From a virus (Duplodnaviria > Heunggongvirae > Uroviricota > Caudoviricetes), in IMG/VR virus record IMGVR_UViG_3300023213_000338: a DNA stretch of 64,000 nt; one strand, written 5' to 3'. Made by a program: the position numbers and the translations under genes. Under the pieces are notes generated by a model. That model saw only the letters and a program-made list of their open reading frames with translations, had not been told where the DNA came from and searched no databases. Each line of letters opens with the position of its first letter. The stretch's first letter is position 1. Positions 8,184 through 42,095 of this stretch are shown in pieces.

Positions 8184-9242
8184 TTGACAAAAATTATAAA
8201 CCTTTGGGGATCAACAGGGGCAAATTATTACACAGACGATACAACAGGAGCAGCATTTACATTTACAGGTTCTGGAGTTACAGAATCTTTGCTTTTGTCT
8301 CAAGTTAGTGTAGGAGCGAATGCTACAGTTGCACCATTGAGAATAATCGCTTCGACGGCATCACAGGTTGTGTTGAGCGTTTCAGGCGTGTTCATCTCAA
8401 CAGCCTCGATTAATGTGGCTGCAAGTGCAACAGCGTTCGTTATTCCCGTATTGACGTTGCGGGCTCTATTAGTAATAATAGATGAGAAAGTTCGAGAATT
8501 CGGTGGAAAACTCTTTGAGTCAATACCGAGCCTTGCAAGAGGTGTAGAGACTATGTACGAACTAACCTTGCAAAAGGTTAAAGATATAGTCCGAACTCCA
8601 ATGCGAATTGGAGAATTAAGTAGAAATAACTTAATCCTAGTTAATAAAATGAATAAAAAGATTTGTACTGTTTGTAATAAAGAATTCTCTAAACCTAGTA
8701 GAAGAGGTTATAAACAATGGGTAAAACAAAAAACTTGTTCTTATAAATGCTATTATGGCCGAACAGTTTCAAAAGAAACAAAATTAAGAATGAGTATTGC
8801 TCATAAGGGAAAACCTAACGCAGGATACTTTACGAAAGAAAGAGTTACTACTTTGGAATGGAGACAAAAGCTTTCTAGGGCTGGAAAAGGTAAAAAAAAG
8901 ACTAAAGAACATATTAGAAAAATCTTACAGAGAAGAACATTTTCTAATTTAGAATTAAAATTTCAATCTTTTATTGACAAATATAATCTCCCTTATAAAT
9001 TTGTTGGTAACGGTAATTTTTTTATCGAAAATATTAATCCAGACTTTGTAAATACAAATGGACAGGAAAAGGCAATTGAGGTTTATTATCAAAAGCATAA
9101 AGAAATGTTTAGAAATAAATCTATTAATGAATGGAGACGAGAACGAAGTAATATTTTTCAAAGATATGGATGGGATATATTATTTATTGAAGCAAAGGAA
9201 TTATCAGAAAAATATATTCTTGAGACCTTCGTTAAAAATTAA
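8184..9242 (+). CDS. homing-endonuclease-like protein (Cys4 zinc finger + NUMOD3-like motif + DUF559/Vsr-like nuclease domain) fused in-frame to an N-terminal hydrophobic A/V/S-rich segment
   Basis: NKKICTVCNKEF...CSYKCYYG is a zinc ribbon and ETKLRMSIAHKGK is NUMOD3-like. The C-terminus FFIENINPDFVNTNGQEKAIEVYYQKHK...YGWDILFIE matches the DUF559/Vsr-like topology and is paralogous to ORF 10181-10954. The TTG start and N-terminal ~115 aa may be a separate or ancestral structural-gene segment. Confidence 0.5.
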   Translation: MTKIINLWGSTGANYYTDDTTGAAFTFTGSGVTESLLLSQVSVGANATVAPLRIIASTASQVVLSVSGVFISTASINVAASATAFVIPVLTLRALLVIIDEKVREFGGKLFESIPSLARGVETMYELTLQKVKDIVRTPMRIGELSRNNLILVNKMNKKICTVCNKEFSKPSRRGYKQWVKQKTCSYKCYYGRTVSKETKLRMSIAHKGKPNAGYFTKERVTTLEWRQKLSRAGKGKKKTKEHIRKILQRRTFSNLELKFQSFIDKYNLPYKFVGNGNFFIENINPDFVNTNGQEKAIEVYYQKHKEMFRNKSINEWRRERSNIFQRYGWDILFIEAKELSEKYILETFVKN

Positions 9243-10180: not shown

Positions 10181-10954
10181 ATGCAGATAAAAAAAAATTG
10201 CGTAAGCTGTAATAGCGAATTTATAGTAAAATCATATAGAAAAAATATTGCTTTATACTGTTCAATAAGTTGTAGTAAAAAGGGAAAATCTGCGTGGAAT
10301 AAGGGGTTAAAGGGTTTTAGAAGTGGAATAAGAAAAATAAGAAATAAATCTTTTTGTCTAACATGCAATAAAGAAATTATACCTAATTATCCTTCGCTTA
10401 AAAATAAATTCTGCTCTATTAATTGTCATAATATGTTTATGAAAAAGCCTTTGAATGAAAAGGCTTACAATTGGAAACCGAAAAAAAAAATGATTTGTAG
10501 AGTATGTAGTAAAATTTTTTATATACAATCTTGTCATACGTCCAAAAGAAAATCTTGCTCGATGCAATGTGCTAGTAAATATCGAATTGGTAGTAGACAA
10601 AGTGCAGAAACTATTAAAAAAAGGCTTTCTCGACGAGAGATGTCTAAGTTGGAAATAAAAGTAAATACCATAATTAATAAATATCATCTTCCATATAGGT
10701 TTGTGGGAAATGGAAAATTCTTTCTCGAAAATATTAATCCAGATTTTGTTAATACTAATGGAGAAAAAAAAGCAATAGAAGTTTATTATCAAAAACATAA
10801 AAATCAATTTAGGCTAGGAGGATGTGAAGGGTGGAAAGAAAAAAGAGAGAAAATTTTTGAAAATTATGGGTGGAAAATAATTTTTATAGAAGGCAGTAAA
10901 ATAACAGAAAAAATTATTCTAGACAAATTAATAAGAGGTGAATATGTATGTTAG
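10181..10954 (+). CDS. homing-endonuclease-like protein (three CxxC...CSxxC zinc-finger modules + DUF559/Vsr-like nuclease domain)
   Basis: The module CVSCNSEF...CSISCSKKGK is repeated three times. The C-terminus YRFVGNGKFFLENINPDFVNTNGEKKAIEVYYQKHK...YGWKIIFIE is about 70% identical to the C-terminus of ORF 8184-9242. Confidence 0.55.
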   Translation: MQIKKNCVSCNSEFIVKSYRKNIALYCSISCSKKGKSAWNKGLKGFRSGIRKIRNKSFCLTCNKEIIPNYPSLKNKFCSINCHNMFMKKPLNEKAYNWKPKKKMICRVCSKIFYIQSCHTSKRKSCSMQCASKYRIGSRQSAETIKKRLSRREMSKLEIKVNTIINKYHLPYRFVGNGKFFLENINPDFVNTNGEKKAIEVYYQKHKNQFRLGGCEGWKEKREKIFENYGWKIIFIEGSKITEKIILDKLIRGEYVC

Positions 10955-12983: not shown

Positions 12984-13021
12984 CGAAGCAACTTAACATA
13001 AGCGAGAAACGCTGTGTTTTA

Positions 13022-13052
13022 GACCAATTATTAATTTAATTGGTCTTTTTTT
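13022..13052 (+). terminator. leader hairpin with U7 tract
   Basis: The 9-bp stem gaccaatta/taattggtc has a ttaatt loop and is followed by TTTTTTT. The stem sequence is nearly the same as the hairpin at 2467. Confidence 0.55.
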
Positions 13053-13059
13053 ATAGAAT

Positions 13060-13938
13060 ATGGCATCAACATGGTGGAAAGCTAATACATCAAACGCCTA
13101 CAACTCTACATTGAATGGTTCTATCGGATCGGCCGATACCACAATTACCCTCAACTCTGTTGCGGGGCTTCAATCTCCTGGGGTTTTGGTTATTGACCGT
13201 ACCGATGGAAGCGGAAATGCCACCCCCACTCTTCGTGAATATATAAGCTTCACAGGTATCAGCAGTAATCAGCTTACAGGAGTTACAAGAGGAGTTGCAG
13301 GTTCAACAGCTCAAGCACATAATTCTGGGGCTCAAGTTGAAGAAAATATGTCAGTTACTCATTGGAATGACATGATTACTCTTGTTACTAATGAGCACGA
13401 TGTAGCTGGGCATCATGTTATTGCAACGGCTACCATCAATTATACTGAAACCAAACAATTAGTAACAACCTCTCTTGCCTCTATTCAACAACTTGTAATT
13501 GCCCAAATGCTTTCTGCATCAGGAGCATCTATCTATGGAAATATTACTGATTTATCTCAACTCCAAGTTTTATCGAATAAGATGCTTAGTTCTCCTACGC
13601 TTGTTACTCCTACAATGCGTCTTCCTATTGTAATTGATGAATACAATAATGGAACATTTAGTGCAAATGCAACAGTTAGCTGGCTTAATGGAGATAGACA
13701 AAAAGGATTATTAAATACAAATTCAACTTTTTATTTTGCTAGTATGGCATCAGGACAGGTATTGACTTTATGGATGTATCAAGATGGTACTGGAGGACGT
13801 AGCATTACCCTTCCTACCATGAGATGGCCGAGTGCATTGCCTCCTACTTTTGGTTCTTCTGCTTCCCAAGTTAATGCAATTATAGTTAAGTATGATGGAC
13901 AGACTTTTTTTGGTCAATCAGCAGTATCTTTTGGTTAA
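13060..13938 (+). CDS. hypothetical virion protein
   Basis: 292-aa ORF, S/T/N-rich, in the structural module. Confidence 0.5.
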   Translation: MASTWWKANTSNAYNSTLNGSIGSADTTITLNSVAGLQSPGVLVIDRTDGSGNATPTLREYISFTGISSNQLTGVTRGVAGSTAQAHNSGAQVEENMSVTHWNDMITLVTNEHDVAGHHVIATATINYTETKQLVTTSLASIQQLVIAQMLSASGASIYGNITDLSQLQVLSNKMLSSPTLVTPTMRLPIVIDEYNNGTFSANATVSWLNGDRQKGLLNTNSTFYFASMASGQVLTLWMYQDGTGGRSITLPTMRWPSALPPTFGSSASQVNAIIVKYDGQTFFGQSAVSFG

Positions 13939-13944
13939 TTTAAT

Positions 13945-14592
13945 ATGGCACTTGCATACGACAATTCAACAGATATGGGGTCTCCAGTCTCGGCTAGCTC
14001 TTATACTTTTTCCCATACTATAAATGGAGTTTCAAATCTAATTCTATTAGTAGGCGTACAAGTTGAGTCTGGAAGCGATTCGGTTACAGGAATCACATAT
14101 AATGGGGTTTCCATGACAAGAGCAAAGCTACAAGTAAGTGTCAATTCTGATGAAACTCTTTATCTTTATTATCTGATTGCTCCTGCAACTGGAGCTAATA
14201 ATGTAGTTATTTCTCTTAGCTCATCAATACTCGCAAAAGCAGTTGCAGCCTCTTATACAGGAGCGAAACAATCAGGTCAGCCAGACTCCTCAAGTGGGGC
14301 TACTAATGCTTCGGCTAATACTTTAACTCTTACCACAACAGTTGTTGCTGCTAACTGTTGGCTTGTTGGTTATGGGGGGTTTGCAGCAGGAGGTACGATT
14401 AGTGCAGGTGCAGGAACTACTTTAAGAGCAAGCAATGGACCTAAAGGCTGGTTTGATAGTAATGCAAGCGTAGGAGTAGGTTCTCAAAGTCTTATTTATA
14501 ATGAAAGCCAAACTAATGAAATTACAGGAGTTATAGCATCTATTCCTCCAGCATCTCCATCTGGAGGAGGATTATTTTTTGAACAATTTTGA
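13945..14592 (+). CDS. hypothetical virion protein (S/T/A/G-rich)
   Basis: 215-aa ORF, 6 nt after the previous stop, preceded by ttaatATG. Confidence 0.5.
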   Translation: MALAYDNSTDMGSPVSASSYTFSHTINGVSNLILLVGVQVESGSDSVTGITYNGVSMTRAKLQVSVNSDETLYLYYLIAPATGANNVVISLSSSILAKAVAASYTGAKQSGQPDSSSGATNASANTLTLTTTVVAANCWLVGYGGFAAGGTISAGAGTTLRASNGPKGWFDSNASVGVGSQSLIYNESQTNEITGVIASIPPASPSGGGLFFEQF

Positions 14593-14605
14593 GAGGAGGT
14601 GAATT

Positions 14606-15055
14606 ATGAATCCAACAGGACAAGGAGGAAATCCATATCTACAAGTACTTTCTCAAATGCAAGGGAATCAAGGAGGTTTTGCAGGAAGTCCAGTCGGAGC
14701 GACTGGCAATGGGGGTGGAATGCCAACAAGTGCAAGTAAGCCGAACGTCGGAGTTGCTGTTCCAGGAGGAATACCTCCTCCAACAGGTGGACAGCTAGGA
14801 GGAACGCCAGGAATGGCAGGCGGACAAGGGACAACTAAAATTCTTATTTCTGCTTTACAAGCATTGCAGCAATTCACTCAAGTTGCAGGAGATCCGCAAG
14901 AACAAGCGATTGTTAGGAGTATAATTACGCTTTTGTCTGGCTTAATCCAAAGGGATATGTCCAGAGCAGATCAAGGAGGAACACAACAACCAGGAGGAAC
15001 AACAACTCCCCAAGGAGCAGGAACGGGAATGGGAGGAGGCTTGCCTCTTCGATAA
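14606..15055 (+). CDS. Gly/Pro/Gln-rich low-complexity protein
   Basis: 149-aa ORF preceded by gagaggaggtgaattATG. Its composition is compositionally biased. Confidence 0.5.
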   Translation: MNPTGQGGNPYLQVLSQMQGNQGGFAGSPVGATGNGGGMPTSASKPNVGVAVPGGIPPPTGGQLGGTPGMAGGQGTTKILISALQALQQFTQVAGDPQEQAIVRSIITLLSGLIQRDMSRADQGGTQQPGGTTTPQGAGTGMGGGLPLR

Positions 15056-15060
15056 AAGGC

Positions 15061-15090
15061 TTGACAAAGAGAAAGCTCTTGTGATATTAA
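15061..15090 (+). promoter_or_regulatory. sigma70-type promoter TTGACA-N18-TATTAA
   Basis: TTGACA at 15061-15066, an 18-nt spacer, then TATTAA at 15085-15090. Confidence 0.45.
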
Positions 15091-15132
15091 TTAGTCAATT
15101 ATAGTTAAAATAATCCAGCACGGATATTTTAG

Positions 15133-15163
15133 ACGACCAAAGTGTAAACTAGGTCGTTTTTTT
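15133..15163 (+). terminator. leader hairpin with U7 tract upstream of the micro-ORF array
   Basis: The stem acgacc/ggtcgt has a 13-nt loop and is followed by TTTTTTT. Confidence 0.4.
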
Positions 15164-15179
15164 ATGTAGAGAAACATTT

Positions 15180-15302
15180 ATGCCTAGAGTAAAAGTTGGA
15201 AATAAGATTAAAAAATTCCCTTACACTCCAGCAGGGAAGAAAAAGGCGAGATCTTACGCCAAAAAAACTGGAGGGAAGATAACGGATAAAGGATCATATT
15301 AA
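15180..15302 (+). CDS. lysine-rich micropeptide 1 (40 aa: MPRVKVGNKIKKFPYTPAGKKKARSYAKKTGGKITDKGSY)
   Basis: ATG to TAA, first of 8 tandem small basic ORFs that are absent from the >=60-aa ORF track. Confidence 0.4.
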   Translation: MPRVKVGNKIKKFPYTPAGKKKARSYAKKTGGKITDKGSY

Positions 15303-15372
15303 GATGGAACTTATTTGGCCAGAGTCATCAGTAATAGTTTGTGGGGATGATGGAGAGGAGGACGAAATATAA

Positions 15373-15552
15373 ATGAAACCTAAAGGAGCAAAAGGCAGAG
15401 CAATGGTTGCTAAACTCGGTAGGACAAAGAAAACAGGAGGTTTTGCAAAGATTGCAGCAAAAGCAGGTAAAAAATATGGTTCTTCTCAGGCAGGGAAAAA
15501 GGTTGCAGGAGCAATTTTCTGGAAAATGGCAAAGGCAAGAGGAGGAAAATGA
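15373..15552 (+). CDS. lysine-rich micropeptide 2 (59 aa: MKPKGAKGRAMVAKLGRTKKTGGFAKIAAKAGKKYGSSQAGKKVAGAIFWKMAKARGGK)
   Basis: A GGAGAGGAGG RBS precedes the ATG. The stop overlaps the next start as ATGA. Confidence 0.5.
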   Translation: MKPKGAKGRAMVAKLGRTKKTGGFAKIAAKAGKKYGSSQAGKKVAGAIFWKMAKARGGK

Positions 15553-15665
15553 AGAAAGTTTCTAAACTTAAAAAGCGTAAGGCAAATCCTTATAAAAAAA
15601 CAGCAAAAGGATCTCCTTATGGAGCGTCAGCAAATACAGTAAGTGACAAGACACAGTATGGGTAA
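15549..15665 (+). CDS. lysine-rich micropeptide 3 (38 aa: MKKVSKLKKRKANPYKKTAKGSPYGASANTVSDKTQYG)
   Basis: ATG overlaps the previous stop. The ORF overlaps the next start. Confidence 0.45.
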   Translation: MKKVSKLKKRKANPYKKTAKGSPYGASANTVSDKTQYG

Positions 15666-15783
15666 AAGAAAGAAAGCGAAAAAAAAGAGTAGAATGTTTA
15701 AAAGGAAAGGAACTCCGATAACATTCCGAATGCCAGGAAGAGTCGCTACAGAACCAAATACGCCAACTGATATTCAATATTAA
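15658..15783 (+). CDS. lysine-rich micropeptide 4 (41 aa: MGKRKKAKKKSRMFKRKGTPITFRMPGRVATEPNTPTDIQY)
   Basis: ATG at 15658, TAA at 15781-15783. Confidence 0.45.
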   Translation: MGKRKKAKKKSRMFKRKGTPITFRMPGRVATEPNTPTDIQY

Positions 15784-15784
15784 C

Positions 15785-15907
15785 ATGAAGATTAAAGGAA
15801 AAAAGACAAAGAAAGCTAAGAAACAGGTTGTAAATATCGGTAAGTCACGGGGATTAAAGGGCTTACCGACTTGGAATGTTAACTCGGGATATTCCAGTAA
15901 GGTCTAG
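15785..15907 (+). CDS. lysine-rich micropeptide 5 (40 aa: MKIKGKKTKKAKKQVVNIGKSRGLKGLPTWNVNSGYSSKV)
   Basis: ATG 1 nt after the previous stop, ending in TAG. Confidence 0.45.
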   Translation: MKIKGKKTKKAKKQVVNIGKSRGLKGLPTWNVNSGYSSKV

Positions 15908-15909
15908 AT

Positions 15910-16035
15910 ATGGGTAAAAATAAATTAGCAAAAAAGAAAATGAAGCTTCAAGCAAAATTGAAGAAAAAATCAATTAAGCGTTCTCATAAACCTAAAGATG
16001 GAGTGTTTGGAGACGTAACTAATAGGACGTATTAA
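15910..16035 (+). CDS. lysine-rich micropeptide 6 (41 aa: MGKNKLAKKKMKLQAKLKKKSIKRSHKPKDGVFGDVTNRTY)
   Basis: ATG 2 nt after the previous stop, ending in TAA. Confidence 0.45.
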   Translation: MGKNKLAKKKMKLQAKLKKKSIKRSHKPKDGVFGDVTNRTY

Positions 16036-16036
16036 T

Positions 16037-16168
16037 ATGGCAAATAAGAATAGGCAGGGAAAAGAAAAGAAAAAGAAGTCTCAGAAAGCAAAGATGAAAC
16101 AAGTTTATAGGGGTTATGCAGGGAATCGGTTGCCAATAGTGAGAAATGAGGGAGGGAATGCAGTTTAA
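16037..16168 (+). CDS. lysine-rich micropeptide 7 (43 aa: MANKNRQGKEKKKKSQKAKMKQVYRGYAGNRLPIVRNEGGNAV)
   Basis: ATG 1 nt after the previous stop, ending in TAA. Confidence 0.45.
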   Translation: MANKNRQGKEKKKKSQKAKMKQVYRGYAGNRLPIVRNEGGNAV

Positions 16169-16170
16169 CT

Positions 16171-16305
16171 ATGAAATCTAAATCAAAAACAAAAAGCAGA
16201 AAATTGATTAATCCTAAAAAGATTAGTAACAATACCAAGCGAATGGGACAAATGCTACAAAAGGCTAGATCACAAGGAAGCATGTATCACGGAACAGGAG
16301 CATAA
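16171..16305 (+). CDS. lysine-rich micropeptide 8 (44 aa: MKSKSKTKSRKLINPKKISNNTKRMGQMLQKARSQGSMYHGTGA)
   Basis: ATG 2 nt after the previous stop. TAA at 16303-16305, 3 nt before the next gene. Confidence 0.45.
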   Translation: MKSKSKTKSRKLINPKKISNNTKRMGQMLQKARSQGSMYHGTGA

Positions 16306-16308
16306 AAT

Positions 16309-17661
16309 ATGGGACCAACAGGAGGAGGAGCAATTCCTTTACCAGGGTTAAATTTAGGATCAAATCAACCAACAGCAAGCGGATCTTTTGCTGTTCCTAC
16401 CACTCAACCGATTACTGGACAACAATTACTTAACAATGTAGCTAACGGAACTGCAAACGCTTTGCCTCAAGGCTTATGGCAAGGAACTCCTATTCGTAAT
16501 TTTCTTGGAGTAACTCCAGCTTATGCAGCTGGACCAGATGTATTAGGAGCAAATACTACTAATCAACCAAGTGCTATTGGAGCAGCTTTACAACAAGCTG
16601 GAAGACAAACAAATAATACTACTCCTGCTGGGCCTTCTGATTCAGAGCTTCAGCAACTTCAAAAAGTTGCAGCAAGTGGAGGATTAAATCCATCTCAACA
16701 AACTCAATATAATCAACTAATGGCTCAACAGCAACAAAGTCCAAGTGCCTCCGATCTACAAAATCAAGCTAATGCAGTTTATCAACCCCAACTTGATTAT
16801 CTCAATAATCTTGCTAATAATATTTTGCCACAAGGACGAAATCAAACAATTGCAAATCTTACTGGTGCTTATAATTCCCAAATTGGGCTATTGCCTGGAT
16901 TACAACAAAGTCTTATTAATCCAATTCAGCAAAACCAAAATCTTTTTGGTCAACAACAACAAAGTGCACTTTCTCAGGCAGCACAACAATATCAAGCATG
17001 GCAAAATCAAATTGCAGGACTTGGGGGAGGAACTTCAGCGGGTCCAGCAGCTCAAGAGCTTGCATACGAACAATTTTTAAGAGGACAACAAGATATCGCA
17101 AATCAAAATGCAAATGCACAATTAACCTTTGGAGGTCAACAAAATCAAGTTAATCTTTTTGTGCAACAGAAGCATGCGGATTTAGATAATTGGCTAAATG
17201 AAGCAAAAACAACAGTTCAAAATAATTTTCTCAACCAATTAGCTCAAGTTCAACAGCAACAAGGATTAACAGAGCAGGCTAGACAACAAGCTAATTTAGA
17301 TATTCTTGCAAATGTTAGAAATCAAAATGCATCAATTGAACTTGCAGATCGTAAATTTAGACAGGACTTGGAACTTTTTAGCACTCTAGCTAATCCAAAT
17401 TCAGTAGGAGGACAATTTAATCAAACAGGACAAATGGCAGCAGGGAATGCCTTAATTAATAATATGCAAAATCCACTTCCACAATACAACTTAACACCAA
17501 CTCCGCAAACAGCCCCAAACATGCCTAACTTTAGTTTCATAGGAAATTTTGGAGCTAATCCAAGAGAGCAAACACAACCAGCAAGCATCTTTGGTAATCT
17601 TCCTAATGTGACTTCTGGAGCTTTTGGAGTACAAGGTGGAGGACAAGGAGCAAACGCTTAA
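16309..17661 (+). CDS. Gln/Asn-rich virion protein (hypothetical)
   Basis: 450 aa, strongly Q/N/A-rich (QQQQSPSASDLQNQANAVYQPQ...). It is co-directional and tightly spaced with the giant protein gene. Confidence 0.55.
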   Translation: MGPTGGGAIPLPGLNLGSNQPTASGSFAVPTTQPITGQQLLNNVANGTANALPQGLWQGTPIRNFLGVTPAYAAGPDVLGANTTNQPSAIGAALQQAGRQTNNTTPAGPSDSELQQLQKVAASGGLNPSQQTQYNQLMAQQQQSPSASDLQNQANAVYQPQLDYLNNLANNILPQGRNQTIANLTGAYNSQIGLLPGLQQSLINPIQQNQNLFGQQQQSALSQAAQQYQAWQNQIAGLGGGTSAGPAAQELAYEQFLRGQQDIANQNANAQLTFGGQQNQVNLFVQQKHADLDNWLNEAKTTVQNNFLNQLAQVQQQQGLTEQARQQANLDILANVRNQNASIELADRKFRQDLELFSTLANPNSVGGQFNQTGQMAAGNALINNMQNPLPQYNLTPTPQTAPNMPNFSFIGNFGANPREQTQPASIFGNLPNVTSGAFGVQGGGQGANA

Positions 17662-17670
17662 TGCATATGT

Positions 17671-20600
17671 ATGGATCAATTCGGAAACGCTCTAAATCAG
17701 ACAGGTAAATTCTTCACAGGAATTGGTCAAGATATTGGAAATACAATTGAAAACGTAGCCTCTGGTCTTAGAGACAACCTCTCAAACGATTGGCAAGGTT
17801 TGTCTAAAAGTATACAACAGCCTCAAATTCCAAGCATCAATAACCCTGTTGCACAGGATGCAACAAGCTCGCTTTTACCCATGATTTTGCAACAAGGTCA
17901 ATATGCTCTGCAAGGAAAAAATGTCTTTGGTCAACAACAACCATGGAGTTTAAGCAATCCTTTTGCTCCTGCTCCTCGTATTAATGCCGCAAATCAAATT
18001 AATACTGGAAATCCAGTTGCAGATTTTGCACTAAAAACAGCAGTTGGTATTCCGCAAAGTATATTAAATGTCCCCTCAGATATCCAACAAGGAGTTGGAC
18101 AAACAGGACAAGATATTCAATCTGGAAAGATATTACAACCCCAAGTTGCGGTAAGCGATATCGCTTCAATCGGTTTGCCAATCGCAACTCTAGCAACTTT
18201 ACCTATGGGAGGAGAAGTTGCCGAACAAGCAATGCAACAAGGGTTCGGCCAAGCTTTGAAAGAAGGAGCTTTGACTGGAACTAAATTCGGAGCAGGTTTC
18301 GGTTTCGGAGCAGGCTTACAAAGTGGAAGAAACATTACAAATCCACAGCAATATTTGCAGAATTTAGCTACCAATGTTGGTGCTGGATCTTTAGCGGGAT
18401 TAGCAGTCGGAGGGACATTGGGAGGAGCGTCTAATCTTATTGGAAGAGGATTACAAAATATGAAAGATAATGAAGCGGTTACTCTTCCAGATGGGTTAAG
18501 GGTTACTCGAGAGGGGATAAATAAGTTTATGGACTTAAAGCCTCAAATCGATGCTAATTACGAACAATATGCAAATGATCCAAATATTTGGCAGAAGCTT
18601 TTGCCTCAAGATAATTTTAACGACTGGTATAAATCACAGGAAATGAACCATACCCCAGGAGGACCAGAAGCTCTTAAAGATGCTAATGGTTATTTCACTT
18701 TCGTTAATCCATTTGATATGCCACCAAAAGTAGCAGAGTCAGGGGATGTTATGAAAGGAGTTGCTTTCGATCAATTCGTTTCCAATAATGGAGTTTCTGA
18801 TTTACCTGTTGTAAAACAAACCTATGACGAAAATGGAAATCCAAATCCTTTAGATATTACAGATGGACATCATAGATTTCCAATTTCAAGGTCTCTTGGC
18901 CATCAATTAGTTCCAGTTGTAATGCTTGATGATAAAGCTCCTTTACTTTCTGATTCTTTCAATCAAATTAAATCAGGAACACCAATGAGAATAGGAATTA
19001 CATCAGCTCAACAAGCAAATCCGCAAGTTGCACAATTTTTGGATCAAGGAGCAAAACAGATGGAAGCTGGAGATATTAATGGAGCGATTAAAACCTTACA
19101 AAATGTTACGGACACAACCAAAGGACAATTAACCGATCTGCTTAATGATGGGGCAACCCAAGTTAGCAGACTTGAAACCAATACTCATGGATTATATTTC
19201 GGAACGCCAGAGCCTTCTTATTGGTTAGATCTTAATTCTAATAACTCAAATGAAACTCTTGCTTCTTTAGCAAAGTTCGCAAAAGACAATCAGCAAGACT
19301 CATTTATTACGGGGACAAAGAGTCAGGCAGGGCAAAATCTTGGTTTATCAATGAACTTTGGAAGACCTCTCAGTAACGAAGAGGTAGTTGCTGTTCAAAG
19401 AATTGCAAACGCAGAAGGATTGGGATTAACGATTAATCAGCGTACAGGAGAAACATATTCATATAATATTTCCCAATTTGATGGATTAAATCCAGAAGAA
19501 TTTAAAACCAAAGCGGAACAAGCGATTACTGCTTTGCAAGCTGGAGGATTCAAATTTAGTAAGTCGCTTGACAAATATAATTTAGGTGTTTACACTAAAG
19601 ATAATTATGACGGACTCATCAGTAAAAGCAACAGATTTGGACAGGTTGGTGCAGGACTTCAACCAGAAGGCACAACAGGAGGGAACATATCAGCCGAGCA
19701 ACCAAAAGGGAACGCAGGTAGCGTTCTTCCGCAAAACGCCCAATTATCCCCTCAAGAAACCTCAATCGTAAAAGGTCGAGATAAATCAATAGACATTAAG
19801 GATGCAACAGCTAAAGTTACAGAGGCTTCAAAAGATGTTCCTGTTTTACAAGATGTTGTAGATAATGCAACAAATGCCGTTAATGGAGTTTCTCAAGTTG
19901 CTTTAAAAGATCCACAATCTTTGGCTCAAAAGGTTGCAGATGATAAAGGAAGAACTTTGGAAAATAATCCAGATACTATTAGAAGCACAATTCTTGCAAT
20001 GGATAAAGATAAAGCTCAACAAGCTTTAGACATTCTTAAACAAGATCCGACAGTTCAGGTTGTAAAAGAGAAAAACAAAGTTAATCCAAAGACAGGATAT
20101 GATGCACAGCATTTACAAGTGAAACTTCCTAGTGGACAAACCGCAGAAATTCAAGCTCACACTCCTGAGTCACTTCAAACTCGTGAGATTGGACATGATC
20201 AATACAAAGGCGAGGGAACAAAAGGTGGAATTCCGCCTCCTCCAGAAAATATTCCAACAACAAACATTTTTGGATCGCCTCAGAATTATGCCGTTCTAAC
20301 AGGATTGGACAAAAACCGTCAAGAAGCTGGATTACCTATTCCTCAACAACAATGGAAGAATCCCATTGCAGGGAAAGGGGATATGGGAGATATCCCTCCT
20401 TTTGATAAGTATGGCAATCAAGGAAAAGGAGCATTCCAGCCAGGAGGAGCAATCCCAGAAACACAAACACCAAAACCCATAGGAGGAATCAAAGCTCTGG
20501 CTAAAAGTTTGTTTGTTGGGGAAAGAAAAGTTCTTGCTGATTCTCCTAGCACAAATGCGAATCTTTTTATTAAACGCTTGGAAGATGCAGCTAATAATCA

Positions 20601-23400
20601 TGAAGACATGGCTTCTTCAGCGATAACTGCTTTAGCAAATGCAAGGAAAGCTTTAAAACCAAATCAATACGCATTCGTAGTAGACTTAGCAGAAGGAAAA
20701 GTACCCATGATTGGAGATAAAGTTGATATGGGCTTAGGAGAGGCGCAGGCACAAGAAATTCCTCCAGAGATTAAGAATTGGTTACAGGCGTGGGATACGG
20801 TTCGTAAAGATATTGCTACAAAAGCAAAAGCTATCGATCTTCAGACTCTTGATCCCGAAGGAGGGATGACAGTTCCTTGGGAGGGAAGAGATAATTATTT
20901 CCCTCATTATGTAACCAAAGAGCAAATGGATCAAATTCGAGCCAATCCAGATGCGACTCTTGATGGCATTATTAGAAGCGGAAAAGCAAGTAATGCTTTT
21001 GAGGCGAGGCTGTATTTAGATAAGCAGTTAGATGCTTTGAGAGCAAGAAGGTTTGGGAATTTGGAAATGCATAGAGGAGATATTGATATTCCTTATTTAA
21101 AAGATCCTCGTATTGCCGAAGATTATGTTAATGGTGCATATAAAAGAATAGCTTATGCCAACCAATTTGGAGCTTTTAATCAAGATGGTCAACGCTTGGT
21201 TGACAACATGATTGGGGAAGGTCGTCCATATGAGTCAAATGTTGCATCTGATCTTTTAAAGCAGGTTACGGGTTATCGTCCACAAAGCCCAGAGGAACAA
21301 GGAGTTGGAATGATTGGGAGAGCTGTTCGTGCAATCGAAACCCCTATGAAGTTAGGCTTAATTTCTCTTCACCACGGAGGACAGGTCGCTTCAATTGCTG
21401 CAAGGTCAGGCCTTGGGAACATGCTCAGAACTGCTCCTCAAGCAGTTTCTTCTTTACTATTTGACAACCAATCTCCTTTTGCTAGAAATGCGGTCTTGGA
21501 GCTTCATGACCTTGATAATAAATATGATCTTTATGGAGGATCTTCTAGACTTGATCAAAAGTTTCTCGGAGTGGTTGGTTTCGACAGAGTAATTAAAACG
21601 CTTCGTGCATGGGGAGCAGACGCTGCCCAAATGCAAGCTAAACAATTCGAAACAAAACTAGACGATTCGACAACAGCAAGATTTCTTAAAGGGGCAGGAC
21701 TTGATTATGATGCAATAAGACAAAGAGGATATCTTACTCAACCAGAAGTTAATCAATATGCAAGATCAGCCTTAAAAGATACAGCCCTTCTTTTTCAGCC
21801 AGGAGATTTACCAAAGCTTTGGAATACGCCAGTTGGAAGACTCATGACTATGTTTAAAACCTTTGGCTATAATCAGGCTACAAAGTTTGTTCCATACATA
21901 TTTAGAGAAGCAAGAGCAGGAAATGTAGCTCCTGCAATCGCATTCTTGACATTGGGAACAGGAATTGGTACAGGTGAACAGGTATTTCAAAATTTAATTC
22001 AAAATAAACCTGCTCCTACGATTGGGAAAACAATTGTTCAAGGTGCACTTAGAGGAGCTAATCCTGGAATTATAGGAAGTACAATTGCAAATACAATTAT
22101 GTACCCACAATATACAGCGTCTAATTTGGTTGGTTTAGTTGGTGGACCCGTAGCCTCTGATGTCATGAATGTAGGAGGATTAGTAAATAATGCTTTAAAT
22201 CCTCCTCAAGGACAAAATCAGGTTCAAATTAAAAACAATCAAATAACTGCAAATAGAGATTTAATTAGAAATGTTCCTTTGGTTGGCTCAACTTTAGCAA
22301 ACACTCTTTTCCCATATAAAAGTTATGTTGGTAATCGTCCATCAGATGTTCTTTCGGGAATGCTTACTGGACAACCAATAACTCATGGAACTGGAGATTT
22401 TGCTTATCAAACAACACCAACAGTTGCTGATTTACTAAGACCAAATCCTACAGTTATCGCTCAAACAAAACAAGCAACAACTATTGCTAAAAATGAAAAT
22501 TCAATTAAAGCTGGATTAGATGCTAATAGACAAACCCAACTTGATACTATCAATAACCTACTTCAGCTTCCTTACAATGGGGGAAATCAGCTTGATAAAA
22601 TTCATGCTTATGGGTTGTTAGCTAATGATGGGCAATTAGCCCTAGCTAAATCACAAATGGAGGCATCTAATGCAAAGACTACAAAAGATCCAGTTAATCC
22701 TTTATGGCAAATGGGACTTGTTAATCCACAAGCACAAAATATTGTTTTGCAATATAAGGCTTTATTGCCAGCAGACCAAAAAGCTTTTAAATCAGATCCT
22801 ACAAATCTAGCTATCTTAAACTCATATAATGCAGCGGAAACAGATTATTACAACAGTCTTCCTCCAACCAAACAAACCCAACAATTTGGTATTGTAGCTC
22901 CGTCTCCTTCAAAAGATGTACAAAACTTACTAAATCAGGCTAAGTCAACAAAAAACTATTCTTTATACAATGATTCAAAAGTGCAAGCATATTTTGCTCA
23001 ACTTGATTATTATGACAATTATATTAATGGATTGGCGGGATTACCCCCTGGAGCTGGAGGGACAACCAAAGGAGGGGGTGGAGGATATGGCTCTTCCAAT
23101 GGTTATATAGGCAATTTACCTAGTAACTATTTGGAACGCGCTCAACTTAGATCCTTTATATCTCAGGCTATGATGCTTGAAAACCAACCTGTCCCAATGA
23201 GATTTAAGGGAGTAGGAGGGTTTCAGCAACAACTCAGACAAAATCCTATTAATATAAATGCATTAACAGGAAATGTAGCATTAGCTCCAAGAGAAAGAGT
23301 TTCACCTGTTTTGGGACAACCAAAAGTTGGAGGAGTACAGCTTAGGCCATATCAGCAACCTACGAGTATGCATGGGCTTGGTATGGCAGCAGTAAGATAA
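17671..23400 (+). CDS. giant virion protein (1909 aa), Q-rich, with an internal ParB/Srx-like DGHHR motif; candidate internal/ejection or tape-measure-like protein
   Basis: Uninterrupted 5.7-kb ORF. DITDGHHRFPISR at about aa 395-407 resembles the ParB/sulfiredoxin-fold signature. The N-terminus is Q/G-rich and the C-terminus has a Gly-rich GGTTKGGGGGYGSSNGY patch. Confidence 0.6.
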   Translation: MDQFGNALNQTGKFFTGIGQDIGNTIENVASGLRDNLSNDWQGLSKSIQQPQIPSINNPVAQDATSSLLPMILQQGQYALQGKNVFGQQQPWSLSNPFAPAPRINAANQINTGNPVADFALKTAVGIPQSILNVPSDIQQGVGQTGQDIQSGKILQPQVAVSDIASIGLPIATLATLPMGGEVAEQAMQQGFGQALKEGALTGTKFGAGFGFGAGLQSGRNITNPQQYLQNLATNVGAGSLAGLAVGGTLGGASNLIGRGLQNMKDNEAVTLPDGLRVTREGINKFMDLKPQIDANYEQYANDPNIWQKLLPQDNFNDWYKSQEMNHTPGGPEALKDANGYFTFVNPFDMPPKVAESGDVMKGVAFDQFVSNNGVSDLPVVKQTYDENGNPNPLDITDGHHRFPISRSLGHQLVPVVMLDDKAPLLSDSFNQIKSGTPMRIGITSAQQANPQVAQFLDQGAKQMEAGDINGAIKTLQNVTDTTKGQLTDLLNDGATQVSRLETNTHGLYFGTPEPSYWLDLNSNNSNETLASLAKFAKDNQQDSFITGTKSQAGQNLGLSMNFGRPLSNEEVVAVQRIANAEGLGLTINQRTGETYSYNISQFDGLNPEEFKTKAEQAITALQAGGFKFSKSLDKYNLGVYTKDNYDGLISKSNRFGQVGAGLQPEGTTGGNISAEQPKGNAGSVLPQNAQLSPQETSIVKGRDKSIDIKDATAKVTEASKDVPVLQDVVDNATNAVNGVSQVALKDPQSLAQKVADDKGRTLENNPDTIRSTILAMDKDKAQQALDILKQDPTVQVVKEKNKVNPKTGYDAQHLQVKLPSGQTAEIQAHTPESLQTREIGHDQYKGEGTKGGIPPPPENIPTTNIFGSPQNYAVLTGLDKNRQEAGLPIPQQQWKNPIAGKGDMGDIPPFDKYGNQGKGAFQPGGAIPETQTPKPIGGIKALAKSLFVGERKVLADSPSTNANLFIKRLEDAANNHEDMASSAITALANARKALKPNQYAFVVDLAEGKVPMIGDKVDMGLGEAQAQEIPPEIKNWLQAWDTVRKDIATKAKAIDLQTLDPEGGMTVPWEGRDNYFPHYVTKEQMDQIRANPDATLDGIIRSGKASNAFEARLYLDKQLDALRARRFGNLEMHRGDIDIPYLKDPRIAEDYVNGAYKRIAYANQFGAFNQDGQRLVDNMIGEGRPYESNVASDLLKQVTGYRPQSPEEQGVGMIGRAVRAIETPMKLGLISLHHGGQVASIAARSGLGNMLRTAPQAVSSLLFDNQSPFARNAVLELHDLDNKYDLYGGSSRLDQKFLGVVGFDRVIKTLRAWGADAAQMQAKQFETKLDDSTTARFLKGAGLDYDAIRQRGYLTQPEVNQYARSALKDTALLFQPGDLPKLWNTPVGRLMTMFKTFGYNQATKFVPYIFREARAGNVAPAIAFLTLGTGIGTGEQVFQNLIQNKPAPTIGKTIVQGALRGANPGIIGSTIANTIMYPQYTASNLVGLVGGPVASDVMNVGGLVNNALNPPQGQNQVQIKNNQITANRDLIRNVPLVGSTLANTLFPYKSYVGNRPSDVLSGMLTGQPITHGTGDFAYQTTPTVADLLRPNPTVIAQTKQATTIAKNENSIKAGLDANRQTQLDTINNLLQLPYNGGNQLDKIHAYGLLANDGQLALAKSQMEASNAKTTKDPVNPLWQMGLVNPQAQNIVLQYKALLPADQKAFKSDPTNLAILNSYNAAETDYYNSLPPTKQTQQFGIVAPSPSKDVQNLLNQAKSTKNYSLYNDSKVQAYFAQLDYYDNYINGLAGLPPGAGGTTKGGGGGYGSSNGYIGNLPSNYLERAQLRSFISQAMMLENQPVPMRFKGVGGFQQQLRQNPININALTGNVALAPRERVSPVLGQPKVGGVQLRPYQQPTSMHGLGMAAVR

Positions 23401-42016: not shown

Positions 42017-42087
42017 TGCCGAGTCGACTAACGGTAAGTCAATTGCCCTTGGAGCAGTTTATCTACGTTCGAGTCGTAGCGCGGCAA
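42017..42087 (+). tRNA. tRNA-Gln (anticodon UUG), CCA not encoded
   Basis: Manual cloverleaf: acceptor tgccgag/cgcggca (one A-G mismatch), U8, D arm gact-aacggta-agtc, anticodon arm attgc-ccTTGga-gcagt, variable loop ttat, T arm ctacg-TTCGAGT-cgtag, discriminator A. Position 33 is C rather than U. Confidence 0.5.
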
Positions 42088-42095
42088 CTTAAAAT

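What the first reader, a model, noticed from the sequence alone, without database searches (positions are those of the whole stretch)
15180..16305. Tandem array of eight micro-ORFs (38-59 aa) encoding extremely lysine-rich peptides inside the virion module
Between 15180 and 16305 there are eight back-to-back ATG-initiated ORFs, separated by -4 to +2 nt except for a 70-nt gap between the first two that holds a 22-aa acidic micro-ORF (MELIWPESSVIVCGDDGEEDEI). Each encodes a peptide of roughly 25-35% Lys/Arg, for example MGKRKKAKKKSRMFKRKG... and MANKNRQGKEKKKKSQKAKMKQ.... They follow their own promoter and leader hairpin and precede the Q-rich and giant virion proteins. All fall below the 60-aa ORF-track threshold. 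The packing and shared composition argue they are real and paralogous. Candidates include packaged DNA-condensing or internal proteins, or ejected effectors.
Basis: seen in the sequence. Interest (0 to 1): 0.7.

Follow-up and report, generated by a model that had tools for sequence, protein, structure and literature searches.

The report
Eight conserved polybasic phage micro-proteins
A previously undescribed large phage carries a tightly packed, evolutionarily conserved row of eight genes for tiny, strongly positively charged proteins that most likely bind nucleic acid inside the virus particle, which tailed phages are not thought to depend on.

Summary
Window 15180-16305 (+) contains eight ATG-initiated ORFs of 38-59 aa. 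They are 27-37% Lys+Arg, with net charge +10 to +18. A 22-aa acidic ORF lies between #1 and #2. Junctions run from -8 to +2 nt, and composition-matched resampling never gives such a chain. The ORFs are real genes. Two related phage contigs keep the same ORFs in the same order with the same stop/start junctions. Pooled dN/dS is about 0.22, and substitutions concentrate at third codon positions. They are not detectable paralogues: no pair within the window is more similar than composition predicts. Six share an architecture of a polybasic N-half and a distinct conserved C-terminal motif. #2 is different. It is a confidently predicted 3-helix domain from a widespread unannotated phage family with 45 representative clusters. 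That family recurs in head-assembly clusters. In T4-like contigs it lies between the portal and the prohead protease, fused to a gp67-like prohead-core protein. In Mx8-like contigs it lies just before scaffold and capsid genes. In T7-like contigs it lies just before TerL. Best reading, at moderate confidence: these are translationally coupled, virion-internal nucleic-acid-binding proteins. Function is untested, no known family matches, and the host is unknown.

The parts
15061..15088 (+). Sigma-70-type promoter-like site: TTGACA, 16-nt spacer, GATATT, with TG upstream of the -10 box.
   Evidence: It is the best-scoring site in 13000-18000, matching 10 of 12 positions. The -35 box and flanking bases are conserved in L018. 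Promoter-like sites overall are not enriched in the region.
15106..15131 (+). Leader hairpin 1, with loop AGCAC.
   Evidence: RNAfold predicts it. L018 folds into the same hairpin with the same loop and a different stem sequence, UCC/GGA in the window versus GUU/AAC in L018.
15132..15163 (+). Leader hairpin 2. It is terminator-like and followed by a run of seven T, 17 nt before the #1 start codon.
   Evidence: Folding gives -11.6 kcal/mol with z = -3.1. An equivalent hairpin plus U7 is present in L018 with z = -3.5. The terminator scan missed it because of its large interrupted loop.
15180..15302 (+). #1, 40 aa, net +12, with charge spread along the whole peptide. Conserved core: FPYTPAGKKKA..AKKTGGK.TD..GSY.
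   Evidence: The L018 ortholog (621-752) is 78% identical, with phmmer E = 2.7e-15. A homolog occurs in the unrelated IMG/VR contig L040 (121-276, minus strand), E = 7e-8.
15304..15372 (+). 22-aa acidic micro-ORF, net -8. It is in frame with #2 across a single TAA codon, and its 3' end carries the GAGGAGGA Shine-Dalgarno sequence of #2.
   Evidence: L018 keeps a 22-aa ORF at the same place (752-820, MELILHQWLLECDPMGDNEDEE). Fused #2 homologs have an acidic run directly before (M/L)KPKG.
15373..15552 (+). #2, 59 aa, net +18. It is a folded 3-helix basic domain with the motif KPKG..G.A.VKRLGRT.KTGGF.KIA.KA.K.YGS.EAGKRVAGAI[FY]WK.
   Evidence: There are 45 representative clusters at E <= 1e-3 and 23 at E <= 1e-10, up to 80% identical. 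The AF2 model has mean pLDDT 88.6 with helices at 5-14, 23-35 and 38-56. No Pfam, PHROG or PDB match was found.
15549..15665 (+). #3, 38 aa. N-half net +9, C-half net +1. C-terminal motif NPY..(5-6)..PYG..(9)..YG.
   Evidence: Orthologs are L018 804-953 and the C-terminus of L001 3249-3515, with shuffle z = 6.9 and phmmer E = 2e-3 and 1e-7.
15658..15783 (+). #4, 41 aa. N-half net +11, C-half net 0. Motif SRMF..K.TPI[TS][FY]RMPG.V..EP.
   Evidence: Orthologs are L018 946-1068 (E = 2.8e-10) and L001 3508-3624 (E = 1.4e-6). The 8-nt overlap with #3 is conserved in all three genomes. The ORF listing gives an upstream GTG at 15643 as an alternative start.
15785..15907 (+). #5, 40 aa. N-half net +9. 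C-terminal GYSSKV.
   Evidence: The L018 ortholog (1065-1178) is 65% identical, E = 6e-9. The positional counterpart in L001 (3621-3728) is not significantly similar.
15910..16035 (+). #6, 41 aa. N-half net +10. C-terminal PKDGVFGDVTNRTY.
   Evidence: The L018 ortholog (1180-1326) has an identical 14-aa C-terminus and a longer KKAIKAK-repeat N-terminus, E = 1.9e-11. For L001 3725-3865, z = 5.5.
16037..16168 (+). #7, 43 aa. N-half net +9. C-terminal LPI[VI]RNEGG.
   Evidence: It was called as a gene in the source JGI assembly (P0005). Orthologs are P0006 in L018 and L001 3868-3996, with z = 12.
16171..16305 (+). #8, 44 aa, net +12. C-terminal ..HGTG.
   Evidence: The L001 ortholog (4001/4031-4201) has z = 5.7 and E = 9e-3. 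In L018 an HNH endonuclease gene follows #7 and the contig ends there.
16309..23400 (+). Context, same transcription unit. The Q/N-rich 450-aa protein (16309-17661) and the 1909-aa giant protein (17671-23400) follow #8 with 3-nt and 9-nt gaps.
   Evidence: This gene pair is conserved in L001, L002 and L003. No + strand terminator-like site lies between the array and these genes.

Best explanation
The region is a conserved cassette of eight separate genes, plus one acidic micro-ORF, for very small polybasic proteins. It is transcribed with the downstream virion genes. Expression is largely by translational coupling, since stops and starts overlap or abut and most internal ORFs lack a Shine-Dalgarno sequence.

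Six peptides (#3-#8) have the same two-part design. A Lys-rich N-terminal half of +8 to +11 would bind a polyanion non-specifically. A short, non-basic, family-specific C-terminal motif would dock to a specific partner. #2 is a compact, basic 3-helix domain with a weakly HTH-like fold.

The most likely function is as virion-internal ('core') proteins. They would be made late, incorporated into the head with or before the DNA, bound to the genome by their basic parts, and probably released with it at infection.

Shown: the ORFs are real, conserved and under purifying selection. Their architecture is as described. The #2 family recurs in head-assembly gene clusters and is fused to a gp67-like prohead-core protein.

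Inferred: nucleic-acid binding, packaging into virions, ejection, and stoichiometry.
For: Real genes:
- ORF chain statistics are far beyond chance.
- Order, frames and even the 8-nt #3/#4 overlap are kept in L018 and L001.
- Pooled pN is 0.27 against pS 0.65, giving dN/dS of about 0.22. Substitutions at codon positions 1/2/3 number 64/58/114.
- Antisense ORFs are not conserved.
- #7 and the L018 copies of #4 and #7 were called independently by other pipelines.

Architecture:
- Charge is polarised to the N-half in #3-#8 and is conserved between orthologs, for example +11/+10 in #4.
- The C-terminal motifs are conserved.

Late or virion context:
- The cassette is co-oriented and contiguous with the Q-rich and giant proteins. 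Tail-fibre-like genes lie upstream and a cell-wall hydrolase downstream, in the window and in relatives.

Head link for #2:
- In T4-like contigs L039 and L025 the homolog lies between a gp20-type portal (PDB E about 1e-110) and a gp21-type prohead protease (E = 2e-15).
- There it lies next to, or fused with, a gp67-like protein (E = 1e-4). T4 gp67 is annotated 'prohead core protein, precursor to internal peptides'.
- In L038 it directly precedes an acidic coiled-coil protein and an Mx8-type major capsid protein.
- In L020 it lies between the presumed portal ORF (677 aa, assigned by position and size only, not tested) and the capsid gene, which has a Pfam capsid match.
- In five T7-like contigs it lies just upstream of TerL, followed by another polybasic micro-ORF of about 40 aa.

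Precedent:
- T4 packs about 360 copies each of IPI-III through the scaffolding core (PMC9958956).

The neighbouring proteins are not acidic enough to be the polyanion partner, which leaves nucleic acid as the candidate.
Against: - No experimental data exist for any of the eight proteins.
- The head-module link exists only for #2, which is absent from L018 and has no detectable ortholog in L001.
- In the window the cassette sits next to tail-fibre-like and presumed ejection-protein genes, not next to portal, protease or capsid genes. None of those head genes was identified in the window.
- #2 homologs also occur outside head modules. L019 has one near a Prim-Pol gene. L034 and L037 have one among unannotated genes that I judged enzyme-like by eye only, without a test. 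L021 has one several genes before the terminase.
- Conventional knowledge holds that basic proteins contribute little to neutralising tailed-phage DNA, and that dense packing leaves little room for them (PMC3281028).
- No capsid-targeting or protease-cleavage signal was identified.
Confidence: 0.4

Rival explanations
1. The peptides are intracellular nucleic-acid binders that are not packaged. They might condense or chaperone replicated phage DNA for the packaging motor as terminase accessories. Alternatively they might coat host DNA, RNA or ribosomes late in infection.
For: - The extreme positive charge and lack of acidic protein partners point to nucleic acid.
- In T7-like contigs the #2 homolog sits directly upstream of TerL, where packaging accessory genes lie.
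- Some #2 homologs lie in non-structural neighbourhoods.
Against: - The fusion of the #2 domain to a gp67-like prohead-core protein, between portal and prohead protease, argues for incorporation into the head.
- The cassette is co-transcribed with large presumed virion proteins.
- There is no similarity to any known terminase small subunit, nucleoid protein or ribosomal protein family.
Confidence: 0.25
2. The peptides are assembly cofactors or structural 'glue' for the tail or ejection apparatus. Each conserved C-terminal motif would bind a specific virion protein such as the Q-rich or giant protein. The basic tails would serve solubility or transient interactions, without a role on DNA.
For: - The cassette is placed immediately upstream of the Q-rich and giant proteins in the window and in the same interval in L001. 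One small basic ORF with the SRMF motif lies in that position in the more distant L003.
- In L040 the #1 homolog also follows Gly-rich fibre-like genes.
- Eight different C-terminal motifs suggest eight specific partners.
Against: - The Q-rich and giant proteins are near neutral, net -5 and -4, so there is no obvious electrostatic partner for about +99 of charge.
- L002 has the Q-rich/giant gene pair but no basic ORF in the short stretch of contig held upstream of it (about 570 bases, so the absence is weak).
- The #2 family associates with head genes, not tail genes.
Confidence: 0.15
3. The peptides are envelope-active cationic peptides. They would be analogous to phage 'disruptin'-type lysis peptides or antimicrobial peptides, and would help breach the cell envelope at entry or lysis.
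For: - Their size and charge resemble cationic antimicrobial peptides.
- Cell-wall hydrolases are encoded a few genes downstream: M23 in the window, glucosaminidase in L001 and CHAP in L003.
- The #6 orthologs contain KKAIKA-type repeats, and one (L001) has a borderline hydrophobic moment.
Against: - The maximal helical hydrophobic moment is not above shuffled controls for 12 of 15 peptides tested. Magainin and cecropin controls are clearly above.
- The peptides are very hydrophilic, with few hydrophobic residues.
- They do not lie in a lysis cassette with a holin.
- #2 is a folded soluble domain.
Confidence: 0.1
4. The region does not encode eight real proteins. It would be either chance ORFs in an A-rich spacer or the frameshifted remains of a single larger lysine-rich gene, caused by assembly errors in poly-A runs or by pseudogenisation.
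For: - The region is A-rich with many homopolymer runs, which are prone to indel errors.
- Frames alternate between successive ORFs.
- Most internal ORFs lack a clear Shine-Dalgarno sequence.
Against: - Every ORF begins with ATG within -8 to +2 nt of the preceding stop. The same boundaries recur in two independently assembled, diverged genomes, 45-78% amino-acid identity with synonymous sites near saturation.
- Third-position substitution excess and dN/dS of about 0.22.
- Chains of this kind do not arise in 3000 resamples.
- #2 has 45 homolog clusters and a confident fold.
Confidence: 0.03

Closest known systems
Bacteriophage T4 prohead-core and internal proteins: gp67, gp68, IPI, IPII, IPIII
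   Same: These are small proteins built into the prohead core. After protease processing they remain in the head with the DNA, at about 240-370 copies each. IPI is injected with the genome (PMC9958956; T4 annotation). In T4-like contigs the #2 domain occupies the gp67/gp68 slot between portal and protease, and in L025 it is fused to a gp67-like N-terminus.
   Different: - None of the eight peptides shows sequence similarity to T4 proteins. hhalign of the #2 family against gp68 gives probability 0.2%.
- This phage is not T4-like.
- The cassette is not next to portal or protease genes.
- The peptides are far smaller than the IPs and number eight in one array.
- No capsid-targeting sequence or cleavage site was identified.
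Microviridae DNA-binding protein J (phiX174) and gokushovirus VP8 (comparison from established knowledge)
   Same: These are peptides of about 25-40 aa with a polybasic N-terminal part that binds the genome. A short specific C-terminal part anchors to the inner capsid surface. #3-#8 have the same two-part design.
   Different: - They belong to ssDNA viruses, with one gene rather than eight.
- They contain Arg as well as Lys.
- No sequence similarity was found. PDB sequence searches with #1, #2 and #4 found nothing relevant.
Protamine-like core proteins of eukaryotic dsDNA viruses: adenovirus VII, V and mu, baculovirus P6.9, and chlorovirus basic virion proteins
   Same: These are small, highly basic, virion-packaged proteins that condense and neutralise dsDNA (PMC6163548; PMC3281028).
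   Different: They are mostly Arg-rich, belong to eukaryotic viruses and are not homologous to the peptides here. Tailed phages are generally considered not to use this strategy (PMC3281028).
Pfam DUF5872 and DUF6321: small basic proteins of phages and giant viruses, function unknown
   Same: In IMG/VR contig L040 the #1 homolog ends a run of small basic ORFs. That run includes DUF6321 (E = 3e-11) and two ORFs matching the halves of DUF5872, below the family's gathering score. This is the same kind of 'guild' of co-located small basic genes.
   Different: None of the eight window peptides matches these or any other Pfam or PHROG family. No functional literature exists on either DUF.
Cationic lysis and antimicrobial peptides (phage 'disruptin' type, magainin, cecropin)
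   Same: Similar size and strong positive charge.
   Different: The peptides have no significant amphipathic helix and very low hydrophobicity. They do not lie in a lysis cassette.

Membership tests
T4-type prohead core / internal head proteins | Gene located in the head-morphogenesis cluster, between the portal and the prohead protease or scaffold. | tested here: inconclusive
   Met for #2 homologs in L039, L025 and L038. In L020 the homolog precedes a Pfam-matched capsid gene, but the 'portal' there is assigned by position only. Not met for the window cassette itself, which lies between tail-fibre-like genes and the giant protein.
T4-type prohead core / internal head proteins | Sequence homology to gp67, gp68 or IPI-III. 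| tested here: not met
   hhalign of the #2 family against T4 gp68 gives probability 0.2%. The eight peptides have no PHROG or Pfam hit. Only the partner domain fused to #2 in L025 resembles gp67.
T4-type prohead core / internal head proteins | Physical presence inside the capsid, and processing by the prohead protease at a targeting or cleavage signal. | not testable with these tools
   This needs virion proteomics or cryo-EM. No cleavage motif was sought systematically.
Microviridae J / VP8 DNA-binding peptides | Polybasic N-terminus plus a short specific C-terminal anchor, in a peptide of about 40 aa or less. | tested here: met
   For #3-#8 the N-half is net +8 to +11 and the C-half is 0 to +4, with conserved C-terminal motifs. 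This is an architectural resemblance only.
Microviridae J / VP8 DNA-binding peptides | Sequence homology, and a Microviridae genome context. | tested here: not met
   No match to any PDB chain sequence for #1, #2 or #4. The genome is a large dsDNA tailed-phage-like element of about 100 kb.
Any curated protein family (Pfam-A, PHROGs) | Profile match at or near the family threshold. | tested here: not met
   Zero families at E <= 1 for all nine ORFs. The same holds for the L001 orthologs and for 10 members of the #2 family. Among 42 #2-family members, one matched tape-measure PHROGs, which I consider spurious.
   All 28 pairs have z <= 1.9 against shuffles that preserve each half's composition. 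Tandem Repeats Finder finds only a 15-nt GAAAA run. One hint of shared ancestry: the L001 l3 protein contains a #4-like SRMF segment.
Cationic amphipathic antimicrobial or lysis peptides | Amphipathic helix, meaning a hydrophobic moment clearly above that of sequence-shuffled controls. | tested here: not met
   Only 3 of 15 peptides reach p < 0.05. Six of the eight window peptides are indistinguishable from shuffles, while magainin and cecropin controls pass.
Helix-turn-helix DNA-binding domains (for #2) | Tri-helical fold superposable on known HTH domains with a significant score. | tested here: inconclusive

The most novel reading that the evidence does not exclude
A tailed dsDNA phage lineage packages its genome together with a dedicated set of about eight protamine- or H1-like polycationic micro-proteins. 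Each would be anchored by its own C-terminal motif. Together they would neutralise a substantial fraction of DNA charge inside the head and enter the cell with the DNA, for example shielding it or priming infection.

Illustration only: at T4-IP-like copy numbers of about 360 each, +99 per set would offset roughly 18% of the phosphates of a 100-kb genome.

The widespread #2 domain, together with the co-occurring small basic families (the #1 family, the MPFKS-motif family, DUF5872 and DUF6321), would then mark a general and overlooked class of phage 'core' proteins. Such proteins would be largely invisible to tryptic virion proteomics, because trypsin cuts them into very short fragments.
Probability: 0.2. 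Interest if true: 0.85.

Novelty: new variant of a known kind. Interest (0 to 1): 0.6.

Why it matters
If these peptides are packaged, the result challenges the accepted view that tailed phages neutralise and condense their DNA with ions and polyamines rather than proteins. It would give a genetically compact system of eight genes in 1.1 kb for studying protein-assisted DNA packing and co-ejection.

Whatever the function, the work defines several conserved micro-protein families that annotation pipelines call only erratically. In L001 two of the eight were not called, and the window's #4 is not in the protein database. It also links one of them, the KPKG-KTGGF 3-helix domain, to head-assembly modules in T4-like, Mx8-like and T7-like phages. 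That gives a concrete, testable hypothesis for at least 45 unannotated protein clusters.

There is also a methodological warning. Proteins with about 30% Lys/Arg yield almost no usable tryptic peptides, so standard virion proteomes would miss them.

Tried and rejected
- Pfam and PHROG scans of all nine ORFs and of the L001 orthologs found nothing.
- PDB sequence searches with #1, #2, #4, the #2-family profile, and the Q-rich and giant protein profiles found nothing useful. The only hit was a weak small-alarmone-synthetase match for the giant protein.
- blastn and tblastn against 50,697 phage records found no relatives. This covered the 5-kb region, the giant protein, #1, #2 and the L025 fusion protein. 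The one exception was a partial #2-domain match in three unannotated huge-phage genomes.
- IMG/VR and JGI metagenome scans with the giant protein, the Q-rich alignment and the #7 alignment or motif gave no further arrays. The 12 metagenome motif hits were all chance matches.
- The genome collection returned only a contig filed under a Nitrososphaeraceae MAG, which is probably mis-binned.
- Profile searches of the 5.8-billion-protein database with #7 and #4 found only the L018 copies.
- Paralogy was rejected.
- The antimicrobial-peptide-like amphipathicity idea was rejected.
- The antisense F/L-rich ORFs of 72-109 aa are by-products of Lys codons and are not conserved.
- An RNA element or tandem DNA repeat was rejected.
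- An acidic protein partner among the neighbouring genes was rejected.
- Ribosomal-protein mimicry was considered, because #1 starts like bL35. No Pfam ribosomal family matches at E <= 1.
- Fold searches for #2 gave no specific neighbour.
Full report
**1. The observation.**
A 22-aa acidic ORF lies in the 70-nt interval between #1 and #2.

- Composition: Lys+Arg is 27-37%, net charge +10 to +18, pI 10.3-11.8. Together they make 346 residues with net charge +99.
- Junctions: -4, -8, +1, +2, +1 and +2 nt.
- The acidic ORF starts 1 nt after the #1 stop and ends immediately before the #2 ATG. It is in the same frame as #2 across a single TAA.

The arrangement is far beyond chance.
- In 3000 composition-matched (first-order Markov) resamples, the longest chain of abutting ORFs of at least 38 aa was 0-1 in 2979 cases and never exceeded 3. 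The observed chain is 7, or 9 when shorter ORFs are allowed.
- Of 181 ATG ORFs of 30-90 aa in all six frames of the window, 15 are comparably basic, and 8 of those are this array.
- There is no tandem DNA repeat and no Rfam family in the region.

**2. The element.**
The window is part of a large, uncharacterised phage-like genome.
- The identical giant protein is on record from a 99,862-bp JGI contig.
- The cassette lies in a block of + strand genes running from 181 to about 27.3 kb.
- Upstream genes give weak to moderate matches: a glycine-rich domain (with a weak 'tail fiber assembly' PHROG match), Laminin_G_3, tail fibre and 'minor tail protein'.
- Downstream, after gaps of 3 and 9 nt, come a Q/N-rich 450-aa protein and a 1909-aa protein, then an M23 peptidase.
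- Neither the DNA nor the giant protein matches anything among 50,697 deposited phage genomes.

**3. Relatives and conservation.**
The giant protein has only three relatives among 5.8 billion proteins.

L001 (Logan, 45% identity in the giant protein):
- It carries a row of small basic ORFs between an upstream 155-aa gene and the Q-rich/giant pair. A minus-strand CAP-domain gene lies between the row and that pair.
- Recognisable orthologs of #3, #4, #6, #7 and #8 are in the same order.
- Shuffle z-scores are 5.5-12. Local phmmer E-values are about 1e-2 for #8 and #6, 1.4e-6 for #4, 2.7e-7 for #7, and 1.4e-7 between the L001 l3 protein and the L018 copy of #3.

L018 (2.1-kb Logan contig, found by a profile search with #7):
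- It is a closer relative.
- It keeps the end of the upstream gene, the promoter-like site and the leader hairpins.
- It keeps #1 (78% identity), the acidic ORF (again 22 aa, MELI... with an acidic tail), and #3, #4, #5, #6 and #7.
- It lacks #2, has one extra 73-aa basic ORF, and has an HNH/NUMOD endonuclease gene after #7.

Evidence for coding on the sense strand:
- The start/stop junctions, including the 8-nt #3/#4 overlap, are the same in all three genomes.
- Between the window and L018, pooled pN is 0.27 and pS is 0.65. dN/dS is about 0.22, with synonymous sites near saturation.
- Differences at codon positions 1/2/3 number 64/58/114.
- The long F/L-rich antisense ORFs are not conserved, with z about 0.

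I conclude with high confidence that these are real, separately translated genes.

Only the first ORFs and a few others have good Shine-Dalgarno sequences, and the rest abut or overlap the preceding stop. Translational coupling is therefore the likely mode of expression. This is an inference.

**4. Not paralogues.**
- No pair among the eight is more similar than expected from composition and N-terminal charge bias. All 28 pairs have z <= 1.9.
- Six of them (#3-#8) share a design rather than a sequence: the N-half is net +8 to +11 and the C-half is 0 to +4.
- Each has its own conserved non-basic C-terminal motif:
  - #3: NPY..PYG..YG
  - #4: TPI[TS][FY]RMPG.V..EP
  - #5: GYSSKV
  - #6: PKDGVFGDVTNRTY
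  - #7: LPI[VI]RNEGG
  - #8: HGTG
- The charge of each half is conserved between orthologs, even where the basic part has indels or repeat expansions, for example the KKAIKAK repeats in #6.
- Overall identity is about the same in the N-halves and C-halves (56% each), so I do not claim that the C-termini evolve more slowly.
- The L001 l3 protein combines an MPFKS-type N-terminal motif, a #4-like SRMF segment and a #3-like C-terminus. This suggests that modules have been shuffled.

**5. #2 is a folded domain of a widespread family.**
- An exhaustive phmmer search of 1.84 billion representatives found 45 clusters at E <= 1e-3 and 23 at E <= 1e-10, up to 80% identical.
- The shared motif is KPKG..G.A.VKRLGRT.KTGGF.KIA.KA.K.YGS.EAGKRVAGAI[FY]WK. 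It often lies at the C-terminus of proteins with Lys/His-rich or acidic N-terminal extensions.
- Of the ten clusters whose source names I looked up, every one that carries a name is called hypothetical. The ten members scanned against Pfam have no Pfam domain covering the shared motif.
- AlphaFold2 with this alignment gives a confident 3-helix bundle, mean pLDDT 88.6.
- Foldseek against the PDB finds nothing at E <= 0.001.

**6. Genomic contexts of the #2 family.**
A motif scan of IMG/VR gave 17 contigs. These were confirmed by local phmmer and their neighbourhoods inspected.

(a) T4-like contigs L039 and L025:
- A gp20-type portal, PDB E about 1e-110.
- A gp67-like protein, BLASTP against T4 gp67 E = 1e-4.
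- The #2 homolog.
- A gp21-type prohead protease, E = 2e-15.
- A strongly acidic protein, net -72, in the position of the gp22 scaffold.
- This matches the T4 gene order 20-67-68-21-22-23.
- In L025 the gp67-like N-terminus, an acidic linker and the #2 domain form one 177-aa protein.
- T4 gp67 is annotated as 'prohead core protein, precursor to internal peptides'. Core and internal proteins are present at about 240-370 copies per prohead (PMC9958956).

(b) Mx8- or P22-like contigs:
- In L038 the #2 homolog directly precedes an acidic coiled-coil protein and an Mx8-type major capsid protein.
- In L020 it lies downstream of the Pfam-matched small-terminase gene and a 677-aa ORF that I take to be the portal from position and size only, and upstream of the Pfam-matched capsid gene.

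(c) Five T7-like contigs:
- The #2 homolog follows two membrane proteins.
- It is overlapped by another polybasic ORF of 39-42 aa.
- It lies upstream of TerL, which is 37-40% identical to annotated terminase large subunits.

(d) Other settings:
- Some homologs lie elsewhere: L019 near a Prim-Pol gene, L034 and L037 among unannotated genes, and L021 several genes before the terminase.

In the window, the acidic ORF abutting #2 in frame resembles the acidic run that precedes (M/L)KPKG in the fused homologs. Examples are EEVEEVEEAMMKPKG in L025 and EEIEEEEVPHMEPKG in P0026.

**7. Context of #1.**
- Its only homolog outside the lineage is in IMG/VR contig L040 (E = 7e-8).
- There it ends a run of small basic ORFs that includes DUF6321 and a split DUF5872.
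- That run lies downstream of Gly-rich ORFs that look fibre-like by composition (not tested against family libraries) and two membrane/coiled-coil proteins.
- No functional literature exists for these DUFs.
- Clusters of unrelated small basic genes are therefore a recurring feature in phages, not something unique to this one.

**8. Mechanism.**
*Shown:* the genes are real, conserved and highly basic. Most have a bipartite charge layout. #2 is a folded domain that recurs in head-assembly modules and is fused to a prohead-core protein.

*Inferred:*
- The polyanion they bind is nucleic acid. The neighbouring proteins are near neutral, with net charges of -15 to +16 for non-HNH neighbours, and -5 and -4 for the Q-rich and giant proteins.
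- They are made late, together with the virion proteins.
- They are incorporated into the particle and leave with the DNA.

I put this reading at about 0.4.

The rivals are:
- Non-packaged nucleic-acid binders or packaging accessories (0.25).
- Assembly cofactors for the tail or ejection proteins (0.15).
- Envelope-active cationic peptides (0.1). This is weakened because hydrophobic moments are not above shuffled controls for most peptides, while magainin and cecropin controls are.
- Non-coding or frameshift artefact (0.03).

The main argument against the leading reading is the established view that basic proteins play little part in neutralising tailed-phage DNA, and that the packed head leaves little room (PMC3281028). 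In addition, only #2 carries a head link.

**9. The leader.**
- The TTGACA-16-GATATT site (15061-15088) is the best promoter-like match in 13-18 kb, and its -35 region is conserved in L018.
- Two hairpins follow and are preserved in L018. The first keeps its AGCAC loop with changed stem bases. The second is terminator-like with U7 (z about -3 in both genomes) and ends 17 nt before the #1 ATG.
- I could not determine whether this structure is the terminator of the upstream operon, an attenuation or antitermination site, or a 5' stabiliser.
- L001 has neither element: its first basic ORF follows the upstream gene by 14 nt with a strong Shine-Dalgarno sequence.

**10. Comparison with known systems, and novelty.**
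- In function, the closest known systems are the T4 prohead-core and internal proteins, the Microviridae J/VP8 peptides, and the protamine-like core proteins of eukaryotic dsDNA viruses.
- Membership in any of these by homology was tested and not met.
- I found no description of an array of translationally coupled polybasic micro-proteins in a tailed phage in the literature searches run. This is absence of evidence within a limited library.
- I rate the finding a new variant of a known kind (small basic phage or viral core proteins), with unknown function and a rare host lineage. Interest is about 0.6.
- The practical hurdle is that peptides with about 30% Lys/Arg are nearly invisible to tryptic proteomics. 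The decisive experiment therefore needs top-down MS or an alternative protease.

Noticed in passing
window 42096-42242 (+): A 48-aa basic ORF (MPYKSKAQQKFF...KKLPRRVKKKGKK) exactly fills the gap between tRNA-Gln (42017-42088) and tRNA-Gly (42243-42316). It shares the motif MP[FY]KS..Q...[FW]...KKLP.[KR]VK with two others: the N-terminus of the L001 array protein l3, and the ORF that directly follows the #2 homolog in L034.
   Followed up: partly
window 17671-23400 (+): The 1909-aa giant protein contains a ParB/sulfiredoxin-like 'LDITDGHHRF' motif. It also has a stretch resembling RelA/SpoT small alarmone synthetases (weak PDB hit 8vx3, E = 0.4). It looks like a multidomain 'polyvalent' protein that is probably injected.
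   Followed up: partly
window 15061-15163 (+); L018 290-397: A promoter-like site is followed within about 100 nt by two hairpins conserved between the window and L018. The second is terminator-like with U7. The layout recalls promoter-proximal terminators that are controlled by antitermination.
   Followed up: partly
L018 1471-2109; window 8184-9242 and 10181-10954: An HNH/NUMOD3 homing-endonuclease gene sits directly after #7 in L018, where #8 would be expected. The window has two HNH-like ORFs inside its tail-gene block.
   Followed up: no
L002 / L017 (JAICVW010000001.1): A 35.7-kb contig filed in GenBank as a Nitrososphaeraceae archaeon MAG carries the Q-rich/giant gene pair and a phage integrase. 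It is probably a mis-binned phage or prophage contig.
   Followed up: no
L024, L028, L029, L032, L036 (e.g. L024 1345-1464): In T7-like contigs a further polybasic ORF of 39-42 aa (MGNGKEKERFKMKNMKSKKMMSKEMPVKKK...) overlaps the 3' end of the #2 homolog, upstream of TerL. This shows that pairs of small basic genes recur in unrelated phages.
   Followed up: partly
L022 5815-6354 (LR756511.1, 595-kb uncultured huge phage): A partial #2-type domain (GGGKNFEKIEKSASKRYGSEEAGKRVAGAIMWKK) is embedded in a 179-aa protein of an unannotated huge phage genome. Two 735-kb huge phage records also match weakly.
   Followed up: partly
window 31096-31293 (-): A 65-aa ORF that is both basic and very Cys-rich (MKKIIKKRPKPITKVKIKCLGKKGSRCCFCLPRGCCKGCVRCCYCRTWLQRCPCDDEK...). 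It appeared in the screen for small basic ORFs.
   Followed up: no
window 49144-53060 and 55059-55748 (-): A CobT-like VWA protein, a MoxR/CbbQ-type AAA+ ATPase and a second AAA ATPase lie next to one another. A ThiF-family protein lies nearby. These are auxiliary genes typical of large phages.
   Followed up: no
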